DNA from: Gammaproteobacteria bacterium
Lineage (GTDB): Bacteria; Pseudomonadota; Gammaproteobacteria; HIGHO2-12-38-15
Direction of reading: 5' to 3'
Assembly (NCBI GenBank): GCA_016218405.1
Contig: JACREE010000022.1
Coordinates: forward strand, 1 to 59,523
DNA length: 59,523 bases
Both the position numbers and the translations under genes were made by a program. Shown piece by piece: positions 8,998 through 19,810 of the stretch (positions are counted from its first letter, which is position 1; every line of letters starts with the position of its first letter). A model generated the notes under the pieces. That model did not search any database, was not told the origin of the DNA, and was given only the letters and a program-made list of their open reading frames with translations.

Positions 8998-10923
8998 ATG
9001 CCCACGCTATCTTCTCGAGAACTGACCTTTCGTGCTGTTTTGCTTGGCATGGTACTGGCTGTGTTACTGGCTGCCTCTAATACGTATTTAGCACTTAAAA
9101 TTGGTATCTTAACCTCTGCTTCTATTCCTGCCGCTGTGCTTTCAATGGGAATTTTACGTTTTTTTAAACGTGTTTCTATTTTAGAAAATAATTTAGTGCA
9201 AACAGCAGCTTCTGCAGGTGAAGCCATTGCAGGTGGAATTGTATATACGATCCCGGGCTTGATTTTAATTCACTATTGGCAAGGTTTTGATTATTGGGAA
9301 AATTTTTTTATTGCGCTGATCGGGGGTAGTCTCGGTATTTTATTTTCTATCCCAATTCGACGTACCTTGGTTCACGACGAAAGTTTACGTTTTCCAGAGG
9401 GGCGCGCGATTGCACAGGTGTTGCAAATGACGTCGCAAGAAAAGTCACAGCATTTTAAGTATATGGTTCAAGGCGGGGTATTGGGTGCGATCATTGAATT
9501 TTTGCAAAGTGGCTTACATGTGGTGTCGGCGAGTGCGCAATCATGGTTTCGCGTAAAACAAGTGGTGCTGGGTGGAGGGCTGGGGTTTTCAGCCACCCTG
9601 GTGGGCGCTGGTTTTTTGATGGGTATTCGCTTGGGATCGAGTTTACTCATAGGTGCTGTCGTGGCATGGATCATAGGTGTGCCTATTCTTTCATTTCAAC
9701 AGGGTGATATTCATTCTTCGGCTGCTCAAGTGGTCGCCACGTTGAGAAATGAAAAAATTGCCTATTTAGGAATAGGCGCCATGTTAACAGGGGGTGTGTG
9801 GGCATTAGTGTGTTTTATAAAGCCATTTTATATCAGCTTGGCGGGGACGTTCGCTGAGTTTTCACGCAGAACAGTGCGTAGGAGTACACTACCCCGTACA
9901 GAACGTGATATTCCTTTTTCTTATATCGTGCTGGGTTTGTTGCTTTGTTTTGTGGGATTATATTTTTTATTTCAACATTTATGTCAGTTATCGTTGATGG
10001 TGCCGAGTGCCCTTCAGCAAAATATATTTTTGATGATCATATTGGCTTATTTATTATTGTTAGGCTTCGCGGCTTCGACTATTTGTGGTTATTTTTCTGG
10101 GATGGTGGGGGTCACGGCCAGTCCAGGTTCTGCTGTTGCGATTGCATCTGTTTTATTGAGCGCATTGCTTGTTCGAATGATGTTAGGTTTTGTTCCTGCG
10201 AGTAATTTGTTGCCTGCCTTATGGCTTAAAGAGGCCAGTGCTATCGTGATCATCATGACGTGTGTGATCATGGGGGGAGCCGCTATTGCAAATGATAATA
10301 TTCAAGACCTAAAGGTGGGATACTTAATTAAAGCCACGCCTTGGAAGCAACAGCTGATGTTGTTTTTGGGTGTGCTGATGGCGTCTGCAACGGTTCCCGT
10401 GGTCATGCAGCTCTTGTTCTCAGTATATGGTATTGGCGATGTTCTTCCTCGTGCAGGTATGAACCCCGCGCAAGCGTTGGCTGCGCCGCCCGCGATGATC
10501 ATGGCAACCCTCGCTCAGTCTGTTTTTAACCATCAACTTCCGTTTGTTTATTTTGGTGTAGGTGCATTGGTCGTATTTTTCTTTATTCTTTTTCAAAAGC
10601 GATTTAATTTGTCTGCATTGGGAATAGGCATTGGCATGTATTTACCTCTTAGCACGTCTACCCCGTTAATTTTAGGGAGCTTTTTTTCTTATTTGCATGA
10701 TCGTGCTCGAAAAAAATCGGGAATTCAAACACAGTCCGGTACGCTTAAGGCGTGTGGTATTGTGGCGGGTGCGGCTCTTATGGATGTATTGATTGCTATC
10801 CCGCTTGCGCTGAATCCTGATGTGACTATGTTTACGCTTTTCCCTTCTTCGTGGGAGATTATGTCTGTCTTTTTAGGTTTTGTTGTTTTATTTATTTTGG
10901 GCAAGTGGTTAAATAGCCGTTAA
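8998..10923 (+). CDS. OPT-family oligopeptide transporter
   Basis: ELTFRAVLLG, ILENNLVQTAASAG, LRFPEG, NDNIQDLKVGYLIKATPWKQQ; many TM segments. Confidence 0.92.
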   Translation: MPTLSSRELTFRAVLLGMVLAVLLAASNTYLALKIGILTSASIPAAVLSMGILRFFKRVSILENNLVQTAASAGEAIAGGIVYTIPGLILIHYWQGFDYWENFFIALIGGSLGILFSIPIRRTLVHDESLRFPEGRAIAQVLQMTSQEKSQHFKYMVQGGVLGAIIEFLQSGLHVVSASAQSWFRVKQVVLGGGLGFSATLVGAGFLMGIRLGSSLLIGAVVAWIIGVPILSFQQGDIHSSAAQVVATLRNEKIAYLGIGAMLTGGVWALVCFIKPFYISLAGTFAEFSRRTVRRSTLPRTERDIPFSYIVLGLLLCFVGLYFLFQHLCQLSLMVPSALQQNIFLMIILAYLLLLGFAASTICGYFSGMVGVTASPGSAVAIASVLLSALLVRMMLGFVPASNLLPALWLKEASAIVIIMTCVIMGGAAIANDNIQDLKVGYLIKATPWKQQLMLFLGVLMASATVPVVMQLLFSVYGIGDVLPRAGMNPAQALAAPPAMIMATLAQSVFNHQLPFVYFGVGALVVFFFILFQKRFNLSALGIGIGMYLPLSTSTPLILGSFFSYLHDRARKKSGIQTQSGTLKACGIVAGAALMDVLIAIPLALNPDVTMFTLFPSSWEIMSVFLGFVVLFILGKWLNSR

Positions 10924-12141
10924 AGCAATAAATTTTTTTATTTCTTGCAATCGCTGTTCTCGTATTTTTTCTTTAATTTGATCGCCGTTCCTATTTTTTA
11001 TTGAATGTGTGTTTATGGGAATAGATTTAATTTTATTAAAAAGCGTCAGCAAATACGTTTTCTGTGGGTAAGTTTTTTCTTCTACATTGTTTCTGCCAAA
11101 AAAATCTGCTTCACACGCTAACAACAAGAGTTCAAAACGTTCAGGACGACGAAAGGCGTCTGTTTTTTCGAATAAAGTGAGTAGGGTGGCGGCTTTTAAT
11201 GTTTGAGCGCGATGAATATGCGTATGATATTCGGCTACTAAAAGCGCCAAGGCTTGATAATCTTTAGGTACTTTATAACGTTGGCAGAGTGTTTTGATGA
11301 GAGGGAGGCTTCTTTTTTCATGATCATGATGTGCGGGCCACGCAGATGCGAGCGTATTTCCTTTACCCAAATCATGCAGTAAAGCTGCAAAACACACGAT
11401 AGGTGAAGCATGAAGTGAGGCAGCATAGGCTACAACCATGAAAGTATGTATGCCTGTATCTATTTCGGCATGATATTGAGGTGGAGCGGGTACGCCAAAT
11501 AAGGCATCTATTTCAGGAAATAAGATGTTTAAGGCACCGCATTCGCGTAAAACTTGTAGAAACACCTGCGGCGCAGAAGTGGAAAATGACAATTGCCATT
11601 CTTGCCAAACACGTTCAGGTACCAAGGCATTGATTTCGCCAGCGCGTACCATTTTTTTCATCAATGCTTTAGTTTCTTCTGCGATAGTAAAGCCTAGCGA
11701 AGCATAGCGTGCTGCAAAACGCGCAATACGTAATATGCGTACAGGATCTTCGACGAAAGCATCAGACACATGTCGTAATAGTTTATTTTCTAAATCTTGT
11801 TTTCCATGGAAGGGATCGATGATGTGACCTTGTTCATCCATCGCCATGGCATTAATGGTTAAATCACGACGCTTTAAGTCTTCTTCTAGGGTGACGCTGG
11901 GATCGGCATGAAAAACAAAACCAGTGTAACCCTTGCCTGTTTTGCGTTCTGTCCGCGCCAAGGCATATTCTTCTTTGGTGTGGGGATGTAAAAATACCGG
12001 AAAATCTTTTCCAACGGGTTTATATCCTTTTGCGCGCAAGGCATCGGGTGTGGTACCTACCACCACATAATCTTTTTCTTGAACGGGTAATCCCAACAAC
12101 TGATCGCGTACGGCGCCCCCCACTAAATAAACAGTCTCCAA
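10909..12141 (-). CDS. cca: Multifunctional CCA-adding tRNA nucleotidyltransferase with HD domain
   Basis: YLVGGAVRD, EYALARTERK, RRDLTINAMA, EDPVRILR, LLHDLGKG. Confidence 0.96.
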   Translation of the reverse strand: METVYLVGGAVRDQLLGLPVQEKDYVVVGTTPDALRAKGYKPVGKDFPVFLHPHTKEEYALARTERKTGKGYTGFVFHADPSVTLEEDLKRRDLTINAMAMDEQGHIIDPFHGKQDLENKLLRHVSDAFVEDPVRILRIARFAARYASLGFTIAEETKALMKKMVRAGEINALVPERVWQEWQLSFSTSAPQVFLQVLRECGALNILFPEIDALFGVPAPPQYHAEIDTGIHTFMVVAYAASLHASPIVCFAALLHDLGKGNTLASAWPAHHDHEKRSLPLIKTLCQRYKVPKDYQALALLVAEYHTHIHRAQTLKAATLLTLFEKTDAFRRPERFELLLLACEADFFGRNNVEEKTYPQKTYLLTLFNKIKSIPINTHSIKNRNGDQIKEKIREQRLQEIKKFIALTAI

Positions 12142-14198: not shown

Positions 14199-15539
14199 CT
14201 ATTTTCGCCGCCTACGCCTACGTCGTGACTTCGAGCGCTTTGCTGCTTCTTCTGCCGGCAGGGCCGCGATCATTACCTGTTGTTCTTCTTCTGAAGCGAT
14301 TTGAAACACTTCCCACCAATGCACAATTTCTTCATATTTTTCCCCCGTCTTTGCGCGCAGGGCTAAGAAATCAAATGCAGCTCGAAAACGCTTATGTTGT
14401 AATAAATGCGAAGCATGTGGGCCACGATGAAGAAGCTGATGTTGTAAATGCCAAATTTCATGTGCGCCTAAAGAAATACGACGGATGATAGCCACTTGCC
14501 GACCTTGTTGTGCAAGTACTTTGGCGATGGCTTTTTCATAAGCGCTAACATCAGGCAGGCCTTCACCCTGGTATTGATAATAAAGCATCATCATGGGGGG
14601 CCATAATAAAGCTGCAAATAGAAAAGAAGGACTGGTAGAACGTTTTTGATGAAATCGCGCATCCATGTCTTTAAGTGCTTCATTGACTAAATGGGTGTGG
14701 ATGAAATCCGGTTCATGTGATAGGCAGTGTGCTGTTTGTGCAAGTAGCCACTGAAAAAGTTGATATTTCTGTAGTAGCATCAAAGCACGTTGTGAAAAAC
14801 CAAATAAAAAGAATTTTTGTATTTCATCAAATAAACGTGCAGGGGGAATATGTTGCAACAATTCACCCATCGTAAATAAAGGGGCTTCTGTTTTTTCTTC
14901 AATTGCAAAATTTAATTTTGCAGCAAAACGAACAGCACGTAATAAGCGCAGAGGATCTTCATGATAGCGTTGGTGAGGATCACCAATCAAACGGACCACT
15001 TTGTGGTGGATATCATCTAAACCGCCGCAATAATCGACTAAAGAAAAATCTGCGATGTTGTAATACAGTGCATTAATTGTAAAATCACGGCGAAAGGCAT
15101 CTTCTTCTAAGGTGCCATAGACATTGTCCCGCATCACCATACCCAGCTTGCTTTTGAGATAATGTTTTTTATTGAATAAACCGGTTGAAGCGCTAGCGCG
15201 AAAGGTGGCAACTTCAATTTTATCAAAGCCAAAGTGTACGTGGGCTAAACGAAAACGCTTGCCGACCAAAAAGCAACGACGAAAAAGTGTTTTGACCTGT
15301 TCAGGTTTGGCATCCGTGGCGACATCGAAATCTTTGGGGAGTAAACCCACCAAAAGATCGCGTACGCACCCGCCTACTAAATAGGCTGCATACCCCCCTT
15401 CTTTTAAGCGATACAGCACCTTCAAAGCATGAGGATGAATGTTTTTACGAGAAATGGGGTGTTCTTCTCGAGGAATGATGCAAAGTTGCCCTTTGGGAGA
15501 GGGTTTTTTTCTAAATAACTGTTTAAGCCGCGTAATAAT
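14199..15539 (-). CDS. pcnB: Poly(A) polymerase I, probable ATT start
   Basis: LVGGCVRD, KDFDVAT, LVGKRFRLAHV, basic C-terminal tail; frame stays open 38 codons above the TTG at 15425 and encodes the conserved IIPREEHPISRKNI segment; only ATT codons (15539, 15536) are plausible starts before the upstream TAA. Confidence 0.93.
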   Translation of the reverse strand: MITRLKQLFRKKPSPKGQLCIIPREEHPISRKNIHPHALKVLYRLKEGGYAAYLVGGCVRDLLVGLLPKDFDVATDAKPEQVKTLFRRCFLVGKRFRLAHVHFGFDKIEVATFRASASTGLFNKKHYLKSKLGMVMRDNVYGTLEEDAFRRDFTINALYYNIADFSLVDYCGGLDDIHHKVVRLIGDPHQRYHEDPLRLLRAVRFAAKLNFAIEEKTEAPLFTMGELLQHIPPARLFDEIQKFFLFGFSQRALMLLQKYQLFQWLLAQTAHCLSHEPDFIHTHLVNEALKDMDARFHQKRSTSPSFLFAALLWPPMMMLYYQYQGEGLPDVSAYEKAIAKVLAQQGRQVAIIRRISLGAHEIWHLQHQLLHRGPHASHLLQHKRFRAAFDFLALRAKTGEKYEEIVHWWEVFQIASEEEQQVMIAALPAEEAAKRSKSRRRRRRRK

Positions 15540-15683: not shown

Positions 15684-17501
15684 GTGCGAGAAGAATATCC
15701 AGCACCTGAGTTAGCTAACCATCCGAATAGGCAAGGGATTCAGCCCAATCCTTCCCCTGCCGGGCAGGTCACGAAAGGCGATCTTCACGGTAATGTCATC
15801 AACTTACTGTACTTCTTGGTTCGAGAAGGCGTCTTACTCATACACGAAACCGCCTACAGTGAACTTTTTAGAATTTACGAAAAAATACAATTCAATATGG
15901 AAAAACAAGTCCACACGGAACTCGATGTGGATGATCTGAAAAGATTTAACGATATCATCGTTAACTATATCCTTATTAATCCCCAGGCAAAAACAAATGG
16001 GGTGCTCGTCCGTCTCATTGGAGATGTGATGGCCGATCGTGGTAATTCTGATTTTTTAACGCTCTTACTGCTGAATAAATTGTATCAAGAAGCGGGACTA
16101 CCTAAACCTGAAATCCTTTTTTCTAATCATGATGCCGGGTTTATTGAAGGCCTCGTTAAAATTAAATTATTGGATCCTCAAAGCCCTTCTTACCTTCAAG
16201 ACGTACTCGGAACCCTTAAGTTTTATGCAACAAACTGTGCTCCCAACGCCTCCATGATTGAAACAATCAATCTGCTTGAACAAAGAATCATTAGCCCACA
16301 AACCTTAATCCAGTATGCAAATCCCTACCTCGCCTCATTAAAATTGCTTTCCTATTCTGATCTCAGTGATCACGGCATTACACTGTATACCCATGCACCT
16401 GCGGGCTTAGAAACTGTTGAAGCCTTGGCTAAAAAATTTAATATCCCTTGCAGTGCACAGAATGAATCCACCCCTTATGAACTGGCTAGAACCATCGATG
16501 CCATCAACGTCGCCTTTCAAACATCACTTTTCAATGGCAGCTTCGAAAAACTATACCAGGATGAGAGGGATGCCATGCAGGATCACGCAGACCGGGGAAC
16601 TGTTCAAATGAATGCACCCCCAACCGATTACCCCTTGATGAGGCTTGCCTGGAATCGTTCAGCAGGAACCGGAGACCCCAAAACAGCTATTCGGGGAGGA
16701 AACAATTACAAGGTATCAAATGTGCACGGCCATATTGGTCCGGAGGTACTACAGGCAGATCTTCTCAACTATGAATCTATTAATTTAGATAATAATTTAG
16801 GTAAAGATATAGGGGCCTGCAAGTTAGCAACCCCCCCGTATGACCCAACCGGCCATGCTTTCACTTACCTTGTTCATAAGGCGACAGTGGCGCCCCAAGC
16901 AGCTGCAGTACAAGCCGTACTGCCAGCACAACAACAACTACACTACGCAGCACAATCATCACAAATATTTGCACCTTTACCGCAGCAAGCACAGCAAGTA
17001 TGGCAGCAGCAACCTGCGCCAGCACAGCAGTTTCAACAACCCTTAAGCAGGCTTCCCTCTCAACAACATCAAGTTTTTTTTCAAACAGCAGCATCCACTA
17101 GACCCGTTTTTGATGCACGTGATGAGCAACACTACCCGTTGGAAACCATTCAGCAAGACTTTATGAATTTTTTTCGTCAAGCTTTAGACTTAGATAAACT
17201 CCGTATTCCAGGAGAGTGGTATCAATTCATTAAGCAAGTTTCTTTCGTTATGCAACCCAACGAGACCTCACCGTCTTTTCAGATCGACTTCCACTCTCCC
17301 CTGCACCTTGGGCAAATTTTACCTGCATTCATCCATCTCGGCGTTGTAGCAAGACCCACGGCCTCTCTGCCAGACACCCTTTCCTCACTGGTATTATCAC
17401 CTAGAGCCTTTCCTGTTTTGAAAGAGAGGTTAGCGCGGGTGTCAGGCAGATCTAGCGAACAGCCTCCAACACCCCCTCCAAGCAATCGGGGACCTTATTA
17501 A
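15684..17501 (+). CDS. WipA/WipB-like metallophosphoesterase-fold phosphatase, candidate Dot/Icm (T4BSS) effector
   Basis: GDLHGN, GDVMADRG, SNHD, THAP, WNR, HGH, LDNNLGK motifs; Gln/Ala/Pro-rich linker and an unrecognised C-terminal domain. Confidence 0.72.
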   Translation: MREEYPAPELANHPNRQGIQPNPSPAGQVTKGDLHGNVINLLYFLVREGVLLIHETAYSELFRIYEKIQFNMEKQVHTELDVDDLKRFNDIIVNYILINPQAKTNGVLVRLIGDVMADRGNSDFLTLLLLNKLYQEAGLPKPEILFSNHDAGFIEGLVKIKLLDPQSPSYLQDVLGTLKFYATNCAPNASMIETINLLEQRIISPQTLIQYANPYLASLKLLSYSDLSDHGITLYTHAPAGLETVEALAKKFNIPCSAQNESTPYELARTIDAINVAFQTSLFNGSFEKLYQDERDAMQDHADRGTVQMNAPPTDYPLMRLAWNRSAGTGDPKTAIRGGNNYKVSNVHGHIGPEVLQADLLNYESINLDNNLGKDIGACKLATPPYDPTGHAFTYLVHKATVAPQAAAVQAVLPAQQQLHYAAQSSQIFAPLPQQAQQVWQQQPAPAQQFQQPLSRLPSQQHQVFFQTAASTRPVFDARDEQHYPLETIQQDFMNFFRQALDLDKLRIPGEWYQFIKQVSFVMQPNETSPSFQIDFHSPLHLGQILPAFIHLGVVARPTASLPDTLSSLVLSPRAFPVLKERLARVSGRSSEQPPTPPPSNRGPY

Positions 17502-17750: not shown

Positions 17751-17776
17751 AATCTCTAAATGAGGAAAGAGTAACT

Positions 17777-18073
17777 ATGAAGACCGGTCTAGTTATCGCA
17801 GCTGCAGCTGCAGCGCTCTTTGTTGCAGGTTGTGCAACACAAGGAACATGTGGAACTCCCGCGGCTCAAGCCCAAGCAGCTTCTTGCTGTAAAGGCATGA
17901 GCTCTTGCAAGGGTGCAAGCTGCTGTAAAGGTACAAGCTCTTGTAAAGCGGCTTGTCCTACTAACACTTGCCCTACCACCACGTGTCCTACTAAGAAACA
18001 TCACAAGAGTCACCACAAAGCTAAAGCCGCTGCTGCTGCATCTGCCGCCAGCACTGAAGCTGCTGCACAATAG
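17777..18073 (+). CDS. Cys-rich MNIO (DUF692) precursor peptide, bufferin-like, predicted lipoprotein
   Basis: Signal peptide ending VAG-C19, 11 Cys, repeated CKG motifs, directly upstream of DUF692/DUF2063 genes; GAGGA RBS. Confidence 0.82.
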   Translation: MKTGLVIAAAAAALFVAGCATQGTCGTPAAQAQAASCCKGMSSCKGASCCKGTSSCKAACPTNTCPTTTCPTKKHHKSHHKAKAAAAASAASTEAAAQ

Positions 18074-18086
18074 TTGTTGTCGCTGT

Positions 18087-18125
18087 ATAAACAAAAAGGG
18101 ACACGATGTGTCCCTTTTTGTTTAT
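18087..18125 (+). terminator. Perfect 18-bp hairpin (intrinsic terminator or mRNA stabiliser) between precursor and enzyme genes
   Basis: ATAAACAAAAAGGGACAC-GAT-GTGTCCCTTTTTGTTTAT; GC core flanked by A and T tracts. Confidence 0.85.
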
Positions 18126-18178
18126 CTTTTCCCGTGTTAATCTAGCTCACCTTTCCCCTTCTTTTCTCGGTTCAAACC

Positions 18179-19045
18179 ATGAACGCTTCTTTTCCTTATC
18201 TTGGTTTTGGATTAGGTTTACGCACCGATCATTACGCTTATATTCTTGAGCATCGTCCGTCATCTGTGGATTGGTTTGAAGCATTAACTGAAAATTATTT
18301 GGTGCCAGGAGGGCGTCCGCTGCATTACCTCACACAAGTGCGTGAACATTATCCTGTGGTGATGCATGGTGTGTCACTTTCTATTGGTAGCACAGATCCT
18401 TTGAATCAAACTTATCTCAAACAAGTGAAAGCGTTGGCGGATCAGATTCAACCCCAGTGGATTTCTGATCACTTGTCATGGGCGGGTGTGGAAGGGATTA
18501 ATTTGCATGATTTAATTCCACTGCCCTACACCGAAGAAGCCATTAAACATGTCACTGAACGTGTTAAACAAGTTCAAGATTATTTGGGACGTCAAATCTT
18601 GCTTGAAAATGTATCGAGTTATATTACGTACAAAGCTTCTTGCATGCAGGAGTGGGAGTTTTTATCTGCCATTGTAGAGGCTGCAGATTGCATGATGTTG
18701 TTGGATGTGAATAATGTGTATGTCAGTAGCTATAACCATGGTTTTGATCCTCTTGATTTTATTAAAAATGTACCCGCAAACAGGGTAAAACAAATTCACT
18801 TGGCGGGGCATCTTAATCGCGGTAATTATATTATTGATACGCATGATCATCCGATCATTGATCCCGTTTGGTCTTTATATGAAGATACCATTCGTTTGCT
18901 CGGTCCTGTTTCAACGATGATTGAGCGAGACGATAATATTCCTAGCCTGCCTGTTTTGTTGGAAGAGTTGGCGATTGCCAAAAAGACAGCGGCAGTGGCG
19001 CAAAGCACGCGTTTGGGTGAACAAGTTTCTGTGGGGGTTCTCTAA
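18179..19045 (+). CDS. Multinuclear non-heme iron-dependent oxidative enzyme (MNIO, DUF692/UPF0276; MbnB/BufB/HvfB family)
   Basis: GFGLGLR, HGVSLSIG, SDHLSW, LLENVSSY, LLDVNNVYVS, QIHLAGH, IDTHD, IERDD. Confidence 0.95.
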   Translation: MNASFPYLGFGLGLRTDHYAYILEHRPSSVDWFEALTENYLVPGGRPLHYLTQVREHYPVVMHGVSLSIGSTDPLNQTYLKQVKALADQIQPQWISDHLSWAGVEGINLHDLIPLPYTEEAIKHVTERVKQVQDYLGRQILLENVSSYITYKASCMQEWEFLSAIVEAADCMMLLDVNNVYVSSYNHGFDPLDFIKNVPANRVKQIHLAGHLNRGNYIIDTHDHPIIDPVWSLYEDTIRLLGPVSTMIERDDNIPSLPVLLEELAIAKKTAAVAQSTRLGEQVSVGVL

Positions 19046-19810
19046 ATGACGACACTTAAAACTTTACAGCACCATTTTCAACAATTCTTATTGATGACGA
19101 TGCCTCATATTCGCGAAGAGGTAGCCACGCCTCAAAAGGGCAGTGCGACGGAGCGTCTGAGTGTGTACGGTGAAGGTTATTACCTCCGTTTGTTTGAAGC
19201 GCTAGGCATTGAATTCGGTGCGCTTGAAAAATTTATGGGACATGCTCGTTTTATAAAAATGGCGCGTGCTTACCTAGAAAAACATCCCTCCCAGTTTTAT
19301 TGTGTGAGGTATATCGGTACTCACCTACCCTCTTTTTTAGCAGAGTATGATCCTGCGCGACCCTACCTGCGTGAATTAGCTTTATTTGAAATGGCATTAA
19401 GTAATGCAATTGATGCGCGAAACGCATCTATTAAAACGACTCAAGATTTGGCAGGTATTCCTATTGAAGCATGGGGTAATATGCGATTTGTGCTTCATCC
19501 CTCGGTGGCTTTGCTTGAGTTTGATTGGAACATTCCTGTTTTATGGGAAATGGCGACTAAAAAAACAAGACACAAACCTTTACATGTGCCTACACAAGTG
19601 ACTGTGTGGCGAAAACAATTGATGCCTTATTATTTTGCTAAAGAAAAAAATGAAGCACGTATGTTATCTCAGTTGCAGCAGGGAGAGAATTTTGCCACGA
19701 TTTGCCAATCGCTTACCGATTTTTTCCCAGATGAAACCGCTGCCGCGCAATATGCTGTTAATGCACTGACACGCTGGCTCAATGAAGAAATGATCAGTGA
19801 TATTGTGTGA
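19046..19810 (+). CDS. MNIO partner protein (DUF2063; BufC/HvfC-like)
   Basis: RLSVYGEGYYLRLFEAL, ARAYLEKHPS, PYLRELALFE, LHPSVALL, VWRK; starts on the base after the DUF692 stop. Confidence 0.85.
   Translation: MTTLKTLQHHFQQFLLMTMPHIREEVATPQKGSATERLSVYGEGYYLRLFEALGIEFGALEKFMGHARFIKMARAYLEKHPSQFYCVRYIGTHLPSFLAEYDPARPYLRELALFEMALSNAIDARNASIKTTQDLAGIPIEAWGNMRFVLHPSVALLEFDWNIPVLWEMATKKTRHKPLHVPTQVTVWRKQLMPYYFAKEKNEARMLSQLQQGENFATICQSLTDFFPDETAAAQYAVNALTRWLNEEMISDIV

What the first reader, a model, noticed from the sequence alone, without database searches (positions are those of the whole stretch)
17777..19810. Minimal MNIO (DUF692) RiPP system with a precursor predicted to be a lipid-anchored lipoprotein
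Seen: a Cys-rich 98-aa precursor, a DUF692 enzyme with its His/Glu/Asp iron-ligand motifs present, and an abutting DUF2063 partner. The signal peptide ends in VAG-C19, a lipobox match. Known: MNIO/partner pairs (MbnB, BufB/BufC, HvfB/HvfC) convert precursor Cys into copper-binding heterocycles, and the characterised bufferin and HvfA products I know are soluble exported peptides. Inference: the product here would be doubly modified (lipidated Cys+1 plus heterocyclised internal Cys), forming a membrane-tethered metal sponge. That could help a probable amoeba-associated bacterium facing phagosomal copper.
Basis: partly seen in the sequence, partly recalled or inferred. Interest (0 to 1): 0.85.

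Follow-up and report, generated by a model that had tools for sequence, protein, structure and literature searches.

The report
Lipid-anchored minimal bufferin-type copper peptide operon
Three adjacent genes encode a small cysteine-rich lipoprotein and the two-protein iron enzyme that most likely turns its cysteines into copper-binding rings; the idea of such lipid-anchored peptides is already published, but this short precursor family is rare and fits no existing family model.

Summary
The genes are a 98-aa precursor with 11 Cys (17777-18073), a BufB-type MNIO (18179-19045) and an abutting DUF2063 partner (19046-19810).

The precursor's signal peptide ends in VAG-C19. That lipobox Cys is invariant in all 16 aligned relatives, and the genome encodes Lgt and LspA.

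The enzyme groups with BufA2-linked ("Cys-Lys") MNIOs. It keeps every conserved metal-site residue and has the Asp that marks Cys-Lys specificity. The precursor fails the BufA2, DUF2282 and HvfA models. Profile comparison shows it keeps only the BufA2 signal peptide and the central C-K-G-x-x-x-C-K loop. To these it adds short tandem repeats and a Lys/His tail.

I read it as a derived, probably unstructured, lipid-anchored bufferin (captophorin).

The novelty claim fails. Antoine 2025 predicted lipoprotein signals on about 16% of Buf2 bufferins. The 2026 DAG-RiPP paper showed a peptide that is both triacylated and MNIO-modified (NedA), and proposed copper capture at the membrane. This scan has also met lipobox bufferin-like precursors on other DNA.

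What remains is a rare new variant. A side observation may matter more: the genome's only MNIO coexists with a second bufA1-bufC-doxX cluster that has no MNIO.

The parts
17762..17769 (+). Shine-Dalgarno-like GAGGAAAG, 7 nt upstream of the precursor's ATG
   Evidence: Read directly from the sequence.
17777..18073 (+). bufA-like precursor gene (98 aa, 11 Cys); a short lipobox-bearing derivative of the BufA2 (Cys-Lys) type
   Evidence: ORF. No Pfam or NCBIfam family at E<=10. Six homologues. Profile-profile match to BufA2: 97.7%, E 1.7e-12. Mature parts only: 88.5%, E 2.8e-6, against 0.2% for the reversed control.
17777..17830 (+). Signal peptide (aa 1-18: K2 n-region, Ala-rich h-region, lipobox F-V-A-G)
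   Evidence: Sequence. The h-region resembles BufA2 signal peptides.
17831..17833 (+). Codon of Cys19, the predicted diacylglyceryl-modified +1 Cys; Ala at +2
   Evidence: G18 and C19 are invariant in 16 of 16 relatives. Lgt and LspA are in the genome. BamE, LptE and BamD of this genome carry LTGC, LTAC and LAAC lipoboxes.
17887..17948 (+). Tandem array of an 18-nt unit (3.4 copies, 68% matches) encoding the hexapeptide units that carry the four Cys-Lys motifs (C38-K39, C44-K45, C50-K51, C56-K57); predicted MNIO target sites
   Evidence: TRF. Motif positions. C38 (nearly invariant), K39, C44 and K45 (invariant).
17952..17994 (+). Tandem array of a 15-nt unit (2.9 copies, 75% matches) encoding three C-P-T-x-T units (C60, C65, C70)
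   Evidence: TRF. Positions. Whether Cys-Pro sites are modified is unknown.
17993..18025 (+). Lys/His-rich tail KKHHKSHHKAK (aa 73-83)
   Evidence: A comparable basic His-rich stretch follows the core in most aligned relatives and in P0007, P0010 and P0011. Its role (extra metal site or recognition element) is inferred.
18087..18125 (+). 18-bp hairpin followed by a U-rich stretch, between the precursor and MNIO genes; intrinsic-terminator/attenuator-like
   Evidence: Fold of -25.6 kcal/mol, z -7.62, 0 of 200 shuffles as stable. A GC-rich stem plus U-run lies at the same place in 6 of 6 relatives folded.
18179..19045 (+). bufB: MNIO (DUF692) enzyme of the BufA2-linked/Cys-Lys type
   Evidence: PF05114 at 374.3 bits; NF050167 at 379.9 bits, above the 310 cut-off. 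Invariant metal-site residues, and D252 after the catalytic D251. Nests in the BufA2-linked clade. PDB 3BWW matches at E 1e-52.
19046..19810 (+). bufC: DUF2063 partner (PME-type 1 / RRE-like)
   Evidence: PF09836 at 59.8 bits, above the 27.2 cut-off. HvfC NF050145 at 55.5 bits, below the 142 cut-off. A partner gene follows the MNIO gene in the 69 loci where both could be delimited.

Best explanation
This is a three-gene bufABC-type (captophorin) operon.

Shown here:
- The enzyme is a BufB-type MNIO with a complete metal site and a DUF2063 partner.
- It belongs to the branch that works on BufA2 ('Cys-Lys') precursors.
- The precursor is a derived BufA2. It keeps the family's signal peptide and the central C-K-G-x-x-x-C-K loop, and it lacks the six-Cys scaffold.
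- It carries a strictly conserved lipobox.

Inferred mechanism:
1. In the cytoplasm, BufB and BufC oxidise Cys of the Cys-Lys motifs to 5-thiooxazoles. The invariant C38 and C44 are the likely minimum; C50 and C56 are probably modified too.
2. The peptide is exported by Sec.
3. Lgt, LspA and probably Lnt lipidate Cys19 and remove residues 1-18.
4. With Ala at +2, the product is probably carried to the inner face of the outer membrane.
5. There the tethered, largely unstructured 80-residue peptide chelates copper. The remaining thiols and the His-rich tail may contribute.
6. The hairpin between bufA and bufB would keep precursor mRNA in excess over enzyme mRNA.
For: Enzyme identity:
- Family scores over the cut-offs.
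- Ten conserved metal-site/catalytic residues in 109 of 109 aligned MNIOs.
- Asp at the position after the catalytic Asp, as in 67 of 71 canonical BufA2-linked MNIOs. It is Phe in 5 of 5 EGKCG-linked enzymes. Gadgil et al. tie this position to Cys-Lys versus Lys-Cys substrates.
- The tree places the enzyme inside the BufA2-linked clade.

Precursor:
- It occupies the syntenic position upstream of the MNIO gene.
- Invariant G18, C19, K39, C44 and K45.
- hhalign to BufA2: 97.7% full length and 88.5% for mature parts, against 0.2% for the reversed control.

Lipidation:
- The lipobox is conserved in 16 of 16 aligned relatives.
- It is also present in 5 of 5 family-like hits of a search whose profile held no signal peptide.
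- Lgt and LspA are present.
- Bona fide lipoproteins of this genome carry similar lipoboxes.

Published precedent:
- 5-thiooxazoles in Buf1 and Buf2, and copper protection (PMC11626156).
- Triacylated and MNIO-modified NedA (PMC13056109).

Hairpin.
Against: - There is no experimental or expression data for this locus.
- The lipobox call rests on a pattern and its conservation; SignalP/LipoP could not be run.
- The window's own precursor scores only 4.1 bits on my BufA2 HMM. It has no hit in NCBIfam or Pfam. The link to BufA2 is visible only at profile level, and it partly rests on the signal peptide.
- No copper gene or sigma/anti-sigma pair lies nearby, so the metal and the inducing condition are inferred from relatives.
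- Which Cys are modified is unknown, and so is whether Cys-Cys or Cys-Pro contexts are tolerated.
- The +2 sorting rule comes from E. coli.
Confidence: 0.7

Rival explanations
1. The peptide is modified by BufB/BufC but is not lipidated. Signal peptidase I cuts it, at G18|C19 or further down, and it acts as a soluble periplasmic bufferin like Buf1, Buf2 and HvfA.
For: Most canonical BufA2 precursors beside related MNIOs lack a lipobox (55 of 72). V-A-G also satisfies the -3/-1 rule for signal peptidase I (sequence; the rule is recalled).
Against: The Cys directly after the [AGS] residue is invariant in 16 of 16 relatives. It is also present in 5 of 5 family-like hits of a profile that held no signal peptide. 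The next AxA-like site (AQA, residues 31-33) lies about 15 residues past the h-region. The lipoprotein pathway is present.
Confidence: 0.1
2. The precursor is a decaying remnant of a BufA2 gene that is no longer a good substrate. In that case the single MNIO mainly serves the Buf1-type precursor encoded on contig C51.
For: The precursor has lost the six-Cys scaffold and fails the BufA2 models. AF2 gives no confident fold (pLDDT 52.8). The genome is small (1.67 Mb) and holds an MNIO-less bufA1-bufC-doxX cluster.
Against: The core C-K-G-x-x-x-C-K is kept across 16 diverged relatives. In the window it has been amplified by tandem duplication. The gene keeps its ribosome-binding site, its position and an attenuator-like hairpin shared with relatives. 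The MNIO carries the Cys-Lys-type Asp rather than the variable residue of Buf1-linked enzymes.
Confidence: 0.1
3. The product is lipidated and modified, but copper buffering is not its main job. It could bind another metal through the His-rich tail and the Cys-Pro thiols, or act as a redox or thiol buffer at the envelope.
For: The His/Lys tail and the three Cys-Pro units have no counterpart in BufA2. No copper genes lie nearby. Antoine et al. note bufferin fusions in mercury-resistance clusters.
Against: Gadgil et al. write that the products of MNIO-PME1 clusters 'generally bind Cu'. Buf1 and Buf2 protect against copper.
Confidence: 0.1

Closest known systems
Buf2 bufferins (BufA2-BufB2-BufC2 of Caulobacter vibrioides; Buf_6/12Cys family, NCBIfam NF050166; PMC11626156, PMC12452194)
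   Same: Gene order A-B-C without DoxX. A BufB-type MNIO in the same clade with the same Asp determinant. A DUF2063 partner. A Sec signal peptide with a similar Ala-rich h-region. The central N-x-C-K-G-x-x-x-C-K-G loop that carries modified Cys. About 16% of Buf2 precursors are predicted lipoproteins.
   Different: No six-Cys scaffold and no CysI-CysVI disulfide pair. The window's precursor gets no hit on NF050166 at E<=10, and two related short forms score 16.5 and 12.4 bits, against 88.7 and 93.4 bits for two canonical neighbours. There is no confident fold. The core is built from tandem hexamer and pentamer repeats. A Lys/His tail is present. The lipobox is present in every member seen.
DAG-RiPPs, in particular lipo-NedA of Neisseria dentiae (PMC13056109)
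   Same: A precursor with an SPII lipobox encoded beside an MNIO and a DUF2063 partner. The product was shown to be both triacylated and modified at -4 Da per Cys. The authors proposed copper capture at the membrane.
   Different: NedA is an EGKCG (Lys-Cys) oxazolin-type precursor. Here the motifs are Cys-Lys and the enzyme has Asp, not Phe, at the specificity position. Nothing has been shown experimentally for this locus.
Captophorins, 'Cys-Lys' precursor group (Gadgil et al., bioRxiv 10.1101/2025.11.18.689057)
   Same: An MNIO plus PME1 (DUF2063) cluster. Multiple Cys-Lys motifs (four here). Predicted 5-thiooxazole chemistry.
   Different: In the main text the words lipoprotein, lipobox and signal peptide occur 0 times. 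I could not see Dataset S2, so I cannot tell whether this family is listed there.
Oxazolin HvfA/HvfB/HvfC of Haemophilus influenzae (PMC11252979)
   Same: An exported Cys-rich precursor modified by an MNIO with a DUF2063 partner; a copper-binding product.
   Different: No EGKCG repeats and no hit to the HvfA models. The MNIO scores below the HvfB cut-off (291.8 against 360). HvfA is cut by signal peptidase I.
Methanobactin MbnA/MbnB/MbnC
   Same: The same enzyme superfamily acting on Cys.
   Different: The MbnB model scores 66.9 bits against a 325 cut-off. MbnA has a leader peptide and no Sec signal, a different partner and oxazolone-thioamide chemistry (partner and leader are recalled).

Membership tests
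MNIO, BufB type (PF05114; NCBIfam NF050167) | Family HMM score above the curated cut-off | tested here: met
   PF05114: 374.3 bits against 25. NF050167: 379.9 bits against 310.
MNIO, BufB type (PF05114; NCBIfam NF050167) | Complete set of conserved metal-binding residues and the catalytic Asp | tested here: met
   H63, H98, E143, D176, N179, H207, D220, H222, E249 and D251 are invariant in 109 of 109 aligned MNIOs and aligned with PDB 3BWW. That these positions are the ligands is recalled from MbnB work. Gadgil et al. name the Asp as the proposed catalytic base.
MNIO, BufB type (PF05114; NCBIfam NF050167) | Adjacent DUF2063 (PME-type 1) partner gene | tested here: met
   19046-19810 scores 59.8 bits on PF09836 against 27.2.
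Cys-Lys (BufA2-linked) MNIO subgroup | Asp directly after the catalytic Asp (BufB2 Asp251 position) | tested here: met
   The window has D251-D252. The D-D pair occurs in 67 of 71 canonical BufA2-linked enzymes, D-F in 5 of 5 EGKCG-linked enzymes, and the position varies in the 9 Buf1-linked enzymes.
BufA2 / Buf_6/12Cys precursor family (NF050166) | Family HMM score above the cut-off (60 bits) | tested here: not met
   No hit at E<=10. It scores 4.1 bits on an HMM built here from 53 canonical cores, whereas canonical members score 57.9 bits or more.
BufA2 / Buf_6/12Cys precursor family (NF050166) | Six (or twelve) conserved Cys, with the first and last as a disulfide pair on a small folded domain | tested here: not met
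   Only the central loop aligns. AF2 shows no strands and no residue with pLDDT of 70 or more. A canonical neighbour gives a sheet plus helix, though also at modest confidence (58.6).
BufA2 / Buf_6/12Cys precursor family (NF050166) | Central C-K-G...C-K-G loop and the family's signal peptide (homology) | tested here: met
   hhalign gives 97.7%, E 1.7e-12 over 50 columns. For mature parts it gives 88.5%, E 2.8e-6, against 0.2% for the reversed control.
DAG-RiPP (RiPP-lipoprotein hybrid) | Lipobox with an invariant Cys at the end of a Sec signal peptide, encoded beside a RiPP enzyme | tested here: met
   VAG-C19. G18 and C19 are invariant in 16 of 16 relatives. The lipobox is present in 5 of 5 family-like hits of a profile without a signal peptide. 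SignalP 6 was not available.
DAG-RiPP (RiPP-lipoprotein hybrid) | Host encodes the lipoprotein pathway | tested here: met
   LspA PF01252 at 130.1 bits. Lgt PF01790 at 273.7 bits. Lnt was not searched.
DAG-RiPP (RiPP-lipoprotein hybrid) | Diacylglyceryl/N-acyl Cys on the mature, enzyme-modified peptide | not testable with these tools
   This needs mass spectrometry of the expressed product.
Oxazolin / HvfA (Lys-Cys, EGKCG) | Repeated E-G-K-C-G motifs; hits to the HvfA models | tested here: not met
   There is no K-C dipeptide in the protein and no hit to NF050137 or NF050188. The MNIO has Asp, not Phe.
CxxxxC precursor family (Antoine 2025; cluster X of the DAG-RiPP paper) | Conserved C-x4-C motif; clusters often hold Lactamase_B_2 and DoxX genes | tested here: inconclusive
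   The invariant pair here is C38-x5-C44, and no Lactamase_B_2 or DoxX gene is adjacent. The family's HMM and logo are in supplements I could not see.

The most novel reading that the evidence does not exclude
In this reduced genome a single BufB2-type MNIO may serve two different substrate-recognition partners and two different precursors. One pair is its own DUF2063 neighbour and the lipid-anchored minimal loop peptide. The other is encoded on contig C51: an intact bufA1 (DUF2282) - bufC - doxX cluster from which the MNIO gene is missing, with the bufA1 stop and the bufC start overlapping as ATGA. That would make the DUF2063 partner, not the MNIO, the element that selects the substrate. It would give the cell one soluble and one membrane-tethered copper buffer from one enzyme.
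Probability: 0.25. Interest if true: 0.55.

Novelty: new variant of a known kind. Interest (0 to 1): 0.3.

Why it matters
The main idea, a copper-binding RiPP tethered by a lipoprotein anchor, is already published and was shown experimentally for a relative. The finding therefore does not open a new category. It adds three things.

1. A natural minimal substrate. The BufA2 modification loop appears without its folded scaffold, always on a lipid anchor. This could simplify enzymology of BufB2-type MNIOs and help define what they need to recognise.

2. A pattern in this sample. Every scaffold-less precursor carried a lipobox (14 of 14), against 17 of 72 canonical ones. The lipid anchor may stand in for the folded domain.

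3. A genome with one MNIO and two partner/precursor sets. This is a natural test of who determines substrate choice.

The host carries a Dot/Icm-type secretion system, so a link to metal stress inside a host cell is plausible. It is untested.

Tried and rejected
- Complex prediction with BufB, BufC and the mature precursor: score 0.02 against a mark of 0.32, no verdict. I do not use it either way.
- The look-up of sequencing runs: no RNA holder listed. One DNA holder may be the source sample.
- The protein-atlas search: best feature score 0.83 and all structural TM below 0.5, so leads only; nothing used.
- The search of earlier findings by place and by sequence: nothing.
- The built-in terminator scan did not list the 18087-18125 hairpin; direct folding did.
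- My first regex classing of precursors misfiled several canonical BufA2 and Buf1 sequences. I replaced it with HMM scores.
- Considered and rejected as families: HvfA/oxazolin, Buf1 (DUF2282) and methanobactin.
- A single origin of the short lipobox forms is neither shown nor excluded. The tree needs 9 label changes, but starred branches force only 1.
- The literature search 'bufferin' + 'lipoprotein' was swamped by 'buffering'. The only relevant hits were the two versions of the DAG-RiPP paper.
- Synteny: the same-genus record keeps pcnB upstream but has neither the WipA-like gene nor lpxA beside the operon. The position is only partly conserved.
Full report
OBSERVATION

The three ORFs are exactly as described: a 98-aa ORF at 17777-18073, a 288-aa ORF at 18179-19045 and a 254-aa ORF at 19046-19810, all on the plus strand. 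The last two abut (TAAATG).

The small ORF has a GAGGAAAG ribosome-binding site 7 nt upstream of its ATG. It has 11 Cys, and its N-terminus reads MKTGLVIAAAAAALFVAG-C19.

The middle gene scores 374.3 bits on Pfam PF05114 and 379.9 bits on NCBIfam MNIO_BufB (cut-off 310). It stays below the cut-offs of the HvfB (291.8 against 360), ApyH, MbnB and ChrH models. The third gene scores 59.8 bits on DUF2063 (cut-off 27.2). The precursor itself matches nothing in Pfam or NCBIfam, even at E<=10.

SURROUNDINGS

Upstream lie pcnB and a WipA-like Dot/Icm effector gene: PF21663 at 162 bits, and NF043030 at 221.9 bits, below its 300 cut-off. Downstream on the other strand lie lpxA, fabZ, lpxD, skp and bamA. 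No copper gene and no sigma/anti-sigma pair is nearby.

The genome (1.67 Mb, 85 contigs, 97% complete) has a single MNIO gene. It also has DotI/IcmL, Lgt and LspA.

In the same-genus record, pcnB is kept upstream of the operon. The WipA-like gene and lpxA are not beside it.

THE ENZYME

I aligned 109 MNIOs: the window plus 108 of 109 surveyed loci. L054 was dropped because its frame was under 230 residues or held a stop or X.

H63, H98, E143, D176, N179, H207, D220, H222, E249 and D251 are invariant in all 109. The nearest solved structure is the Haemophilus DUF692 protein 3BWW (E 1e-52).

Gadgil et al. (bioRxiv 10.1101/2025.11.18.689057; outline, passages and sections 12 and 13 read) report that the residue after the catalytic Asp is Phe in 'Lys-Cys' (EGKCG) enzymes and Asp in 'Cys-Lys' (BufA2) enzymes. 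The window has D251-D252. In my alignment the pair is:
- D-D in 50 of 54 + 17 of 17 canonical BufA2-linked enzymes;
- D-D in 13 of 15 enzymes linked to short lipobox precursors;
- D-F in 5 of 5 EGKCG-linked enzymes;
- variable in the 9 Buf1-linked enzymes.

A quick maximum-likelihood tree (LG+G4, SH-aLRT only) puts the window's enzyme inside the BufA2-linked clade of 92 rows (support 92). It is next to its same-genus homologue, and apart from the Buf1- and EGKCG-linked enzymes.

THE PRECURSOR AND ITS RELATIVES

A word-based search of 5.8 billion proteins gave only 6 hits at E<=0.01. All six share the signal peptide ...ALFVAGC[AS]T, a C-K-G-M-x-S-C-K core and, in five of the six, a Lys/His stretch.

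I then examined the ORF upstream of the MNIO gene in 109 loci. Of these, 29 came from 40 relatives' genomes and 80 from named public genome records. L003 and L032 are the same record, and L011 comes from the unpublished genome G039.

My filter asked for a K/R n-region, an 11-residue uncharged stretch and at least one Cys. Precursors were then classed by an HMM built from 53 canonical BufA2 cores:
- 55 canonical BufA2 without a lipobox;
- 17 canonical BufA2 with a lipobox;
- 14 non-canonical short forms (at most 22.3 bits, against 57.9 or more for canonical ones), all 14 with a lipobox;
- 9 Buf1;
- 5 EGKCG;
- 9 with no candidate.

Of the 9 without a candidate, five sit at contig edges. Four have upstream sequence but no convincing ORF, and one of those four shows a Buf1-like fragment. 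Two of the 14 short forms (L045, L056) are doubtful and may be truncated.

In a 16-sequence alignment of the short forms, G18, C19, K39, C44 and K45 are invariant, and C38 and G40 nearly so.

A profile of the mature parts only, without the signal peptide or the lipobox Cys, was searched against 1.84 billion representatives. It found 6 proteins at E<=0.001. One is an unrelated repeat protein. The other five all carry the lipobox. The family is therefore rare, and the lipobox is a fixed feature of it.

RELATION TO BufA2

- The window's precursor is not a BufA2 member by model score: no NF050166 hit at E<=10, and 4.1 bits on my HMM.
- Profile-profile comparison links the short family to BufA2. 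Full length it gives 97.7%, E 1.7e-12 over 50 columns, covering the signal peptide and the second C-K-G...C-K-G loop. For mature parts only it gives 88.5%, E 2.8e-6 over 18 columns, against 0.2% for the reversed control.
- The Ala-rich h-region resembles that of BufA2 precursors with either kind of cleavage site. In the canonical family, lipobox and non-lipobox forms are interleaved on the enzyme tree (8 label changes).
- AlphaFold2 gives the window's precursor no strands and no residue at pLDDT of 70 or more (mean 52.8, pTM 0.19). A canonical neighbour gives a small sheet plus helix, but itself at modest confidence (58.6, 0.36).
- The window's core is made of two short tandem arrays: an 18-nt unit x3.4 carrying the four Cys-Lys motifs, and a 15-nt unit x2.9 carrying three Cys-Pro-Thr units.

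LIPIDATION

No signal-peptide predictor was available. The case rests on five points:
- the fit to the lipobox pattern (the rule is recalled);
- its invariance in relatives;
- the presence of Lgt and LspA;
- the similar lipoboxes of this genome's BamE, LptE and BamD;
- the lack of a plausible signal-peptidase-I site near the h-region.

Ala at +2 suggests outer-membrane sorting by the E. coli rule (PMC13056109).

REGULATION

An 18-bp hairpin followed by a U-rich stretch lies between the precursor and enzyme genes (-25.6 kcal/mol, z -7.6). A GC-rich stem plus U-run lies at the same place in 6 of 6 relatives folded, with unrelated sequences. The whole-stretch z-scores run from -1.4 to -8.1, and 5 of 6 are below -3. 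I read it as an attenuator that keeps precursor mRNA in excess. This is an inference.

WHAT IS KNOWN

- Leprevost et al. (PMC11626156; passages read) showed that BufB/BufC make 5-thiooxazoles on the central Cys of Buf1 and Buf2, that the products bind copper, and that the signal peptide is dispensable for modification.
- Antoine et al. (PMC12452194; sections 13-15 and 19 read) state that about 16% of Buf2 bufferins are predicted lipoproteins. They also report hundreds of small unclassified Cys ORFs with signal peptides preceding MNIO genes, listed in a Table S2 that I could not see.
- The DAG-RiPP paper (PMC13056109; abstract and passages read) mined MNIO-associated lipoproteins including bufferins and oxazolins. 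It showed triacylated, -12 Da lipo-NedA and suggested copper sequestration at the membrane.
- Gadgil et al. unify these products as captophorins, with a 'Cys-Lys' precursor group.
- This scan had already reported lipobox-bearing bufferin-like precursors on other DNA. One of those notes gave me the captophorin lead.

SIDE FINDING

Contig C51 of the same genome carries, on one strand:
- a DUF2282 (Buf1-type) precursor (39.8 bits);
- a DUF2063 gene (45.4 bits) whose ATG overlaps the precursor's stop as ATGA;
- a DoxX gene (52.7 bits).

No MNIO gene is present in this cluster. The two DUF2063 proteins of the genome are about 16% identical.

All 17 non-self matches to the C51 partner in relatives lie beside an MNIO match. 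With this query the same-genus genome gave no match. This leaves two readings: one enzyme shared by two partner/precursor sets, or a remnant cluster.

VERDICT

The operon and the lipobox are real. The most likely product is a lipid-anchored peptide carrying thiooxazoles that binds copper (confidence 0.7). It is a rare new variant of a known and already lipoprotein-linked kind, and interest is modest.

Claims that include the unpublished genome G039: L011 is one of the 55 non-lipobox canonical rows, and one row. No conclusion depends on it.

Noticed in passing
Own genome contig C51; locus L113 147-1779 (minus strand): A second, MNIO-less bufferin cluster. It holds a DUF2282 precursor (L113 1444-1779), a DUF2063 partner (671-1447) whose start overlaps the precursor's stop as ATGA, and DoxX (147-614). 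The genome's only MNIO is the window's. All 17 non-self matches to this partner in relatives sit beside an MNIO match.
   Followed up: partly
window 18087-18125; L003, L036, L043, L095, L008 and L006 intergenic stretches: A terminator-like hairpin followed by a U-run lies between the precursor and MNIO genes in the window and in 6 of 6 relatives folded. The sequences are unrelated, so it looks like a conserved attenuator of these operons.
   Followed up: partly
window 15684-17501 (+): A 605-aa protein with a WipA-like phosphatase domain (PF21663, 162 bits) and a Gln/Pro-rich middle part. It sits directly upstream of the operon and is absent from that position in the same-genus record L032. The genome also has DotI/IcmL (contig C31).
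   Followed up: partly
Precursors in L003-L111: BufA2-type signal peptides share an unusually conserved Ala-rich h-region (G-h-x-h-A-x-A-A-A-x-L-F), whether the cleavage site is a lipobox or not. Lipobox and non-lipobox forms differ mainly by a Cys right after the S/T/A-G. This would make switching between soluble and tethered forms easy.
   Followed up: partly
L083, L102, L063 and L050, L044: Some lipobox-bearing canonical BufA2 precursors are duplicated (13 Cys, two domains) or have an expanded central loop (11 Cys).
   Followed up: no
window 10909-12141 (-) and 14199-15425 (-): Two poly(A) polymerase/CCA-adding-type genes (PolyA_pol head domain) lie within 4 kb. One has an HD domain (cca-like). 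The other has the arginine-rich PcnB C-terminus.
   Followed up: no
window about 30000-59500: G+C content drops from about 0.43-0.45 to 0.34-0.40 in the second half of the window. I did not examine it.
   Followed up: no
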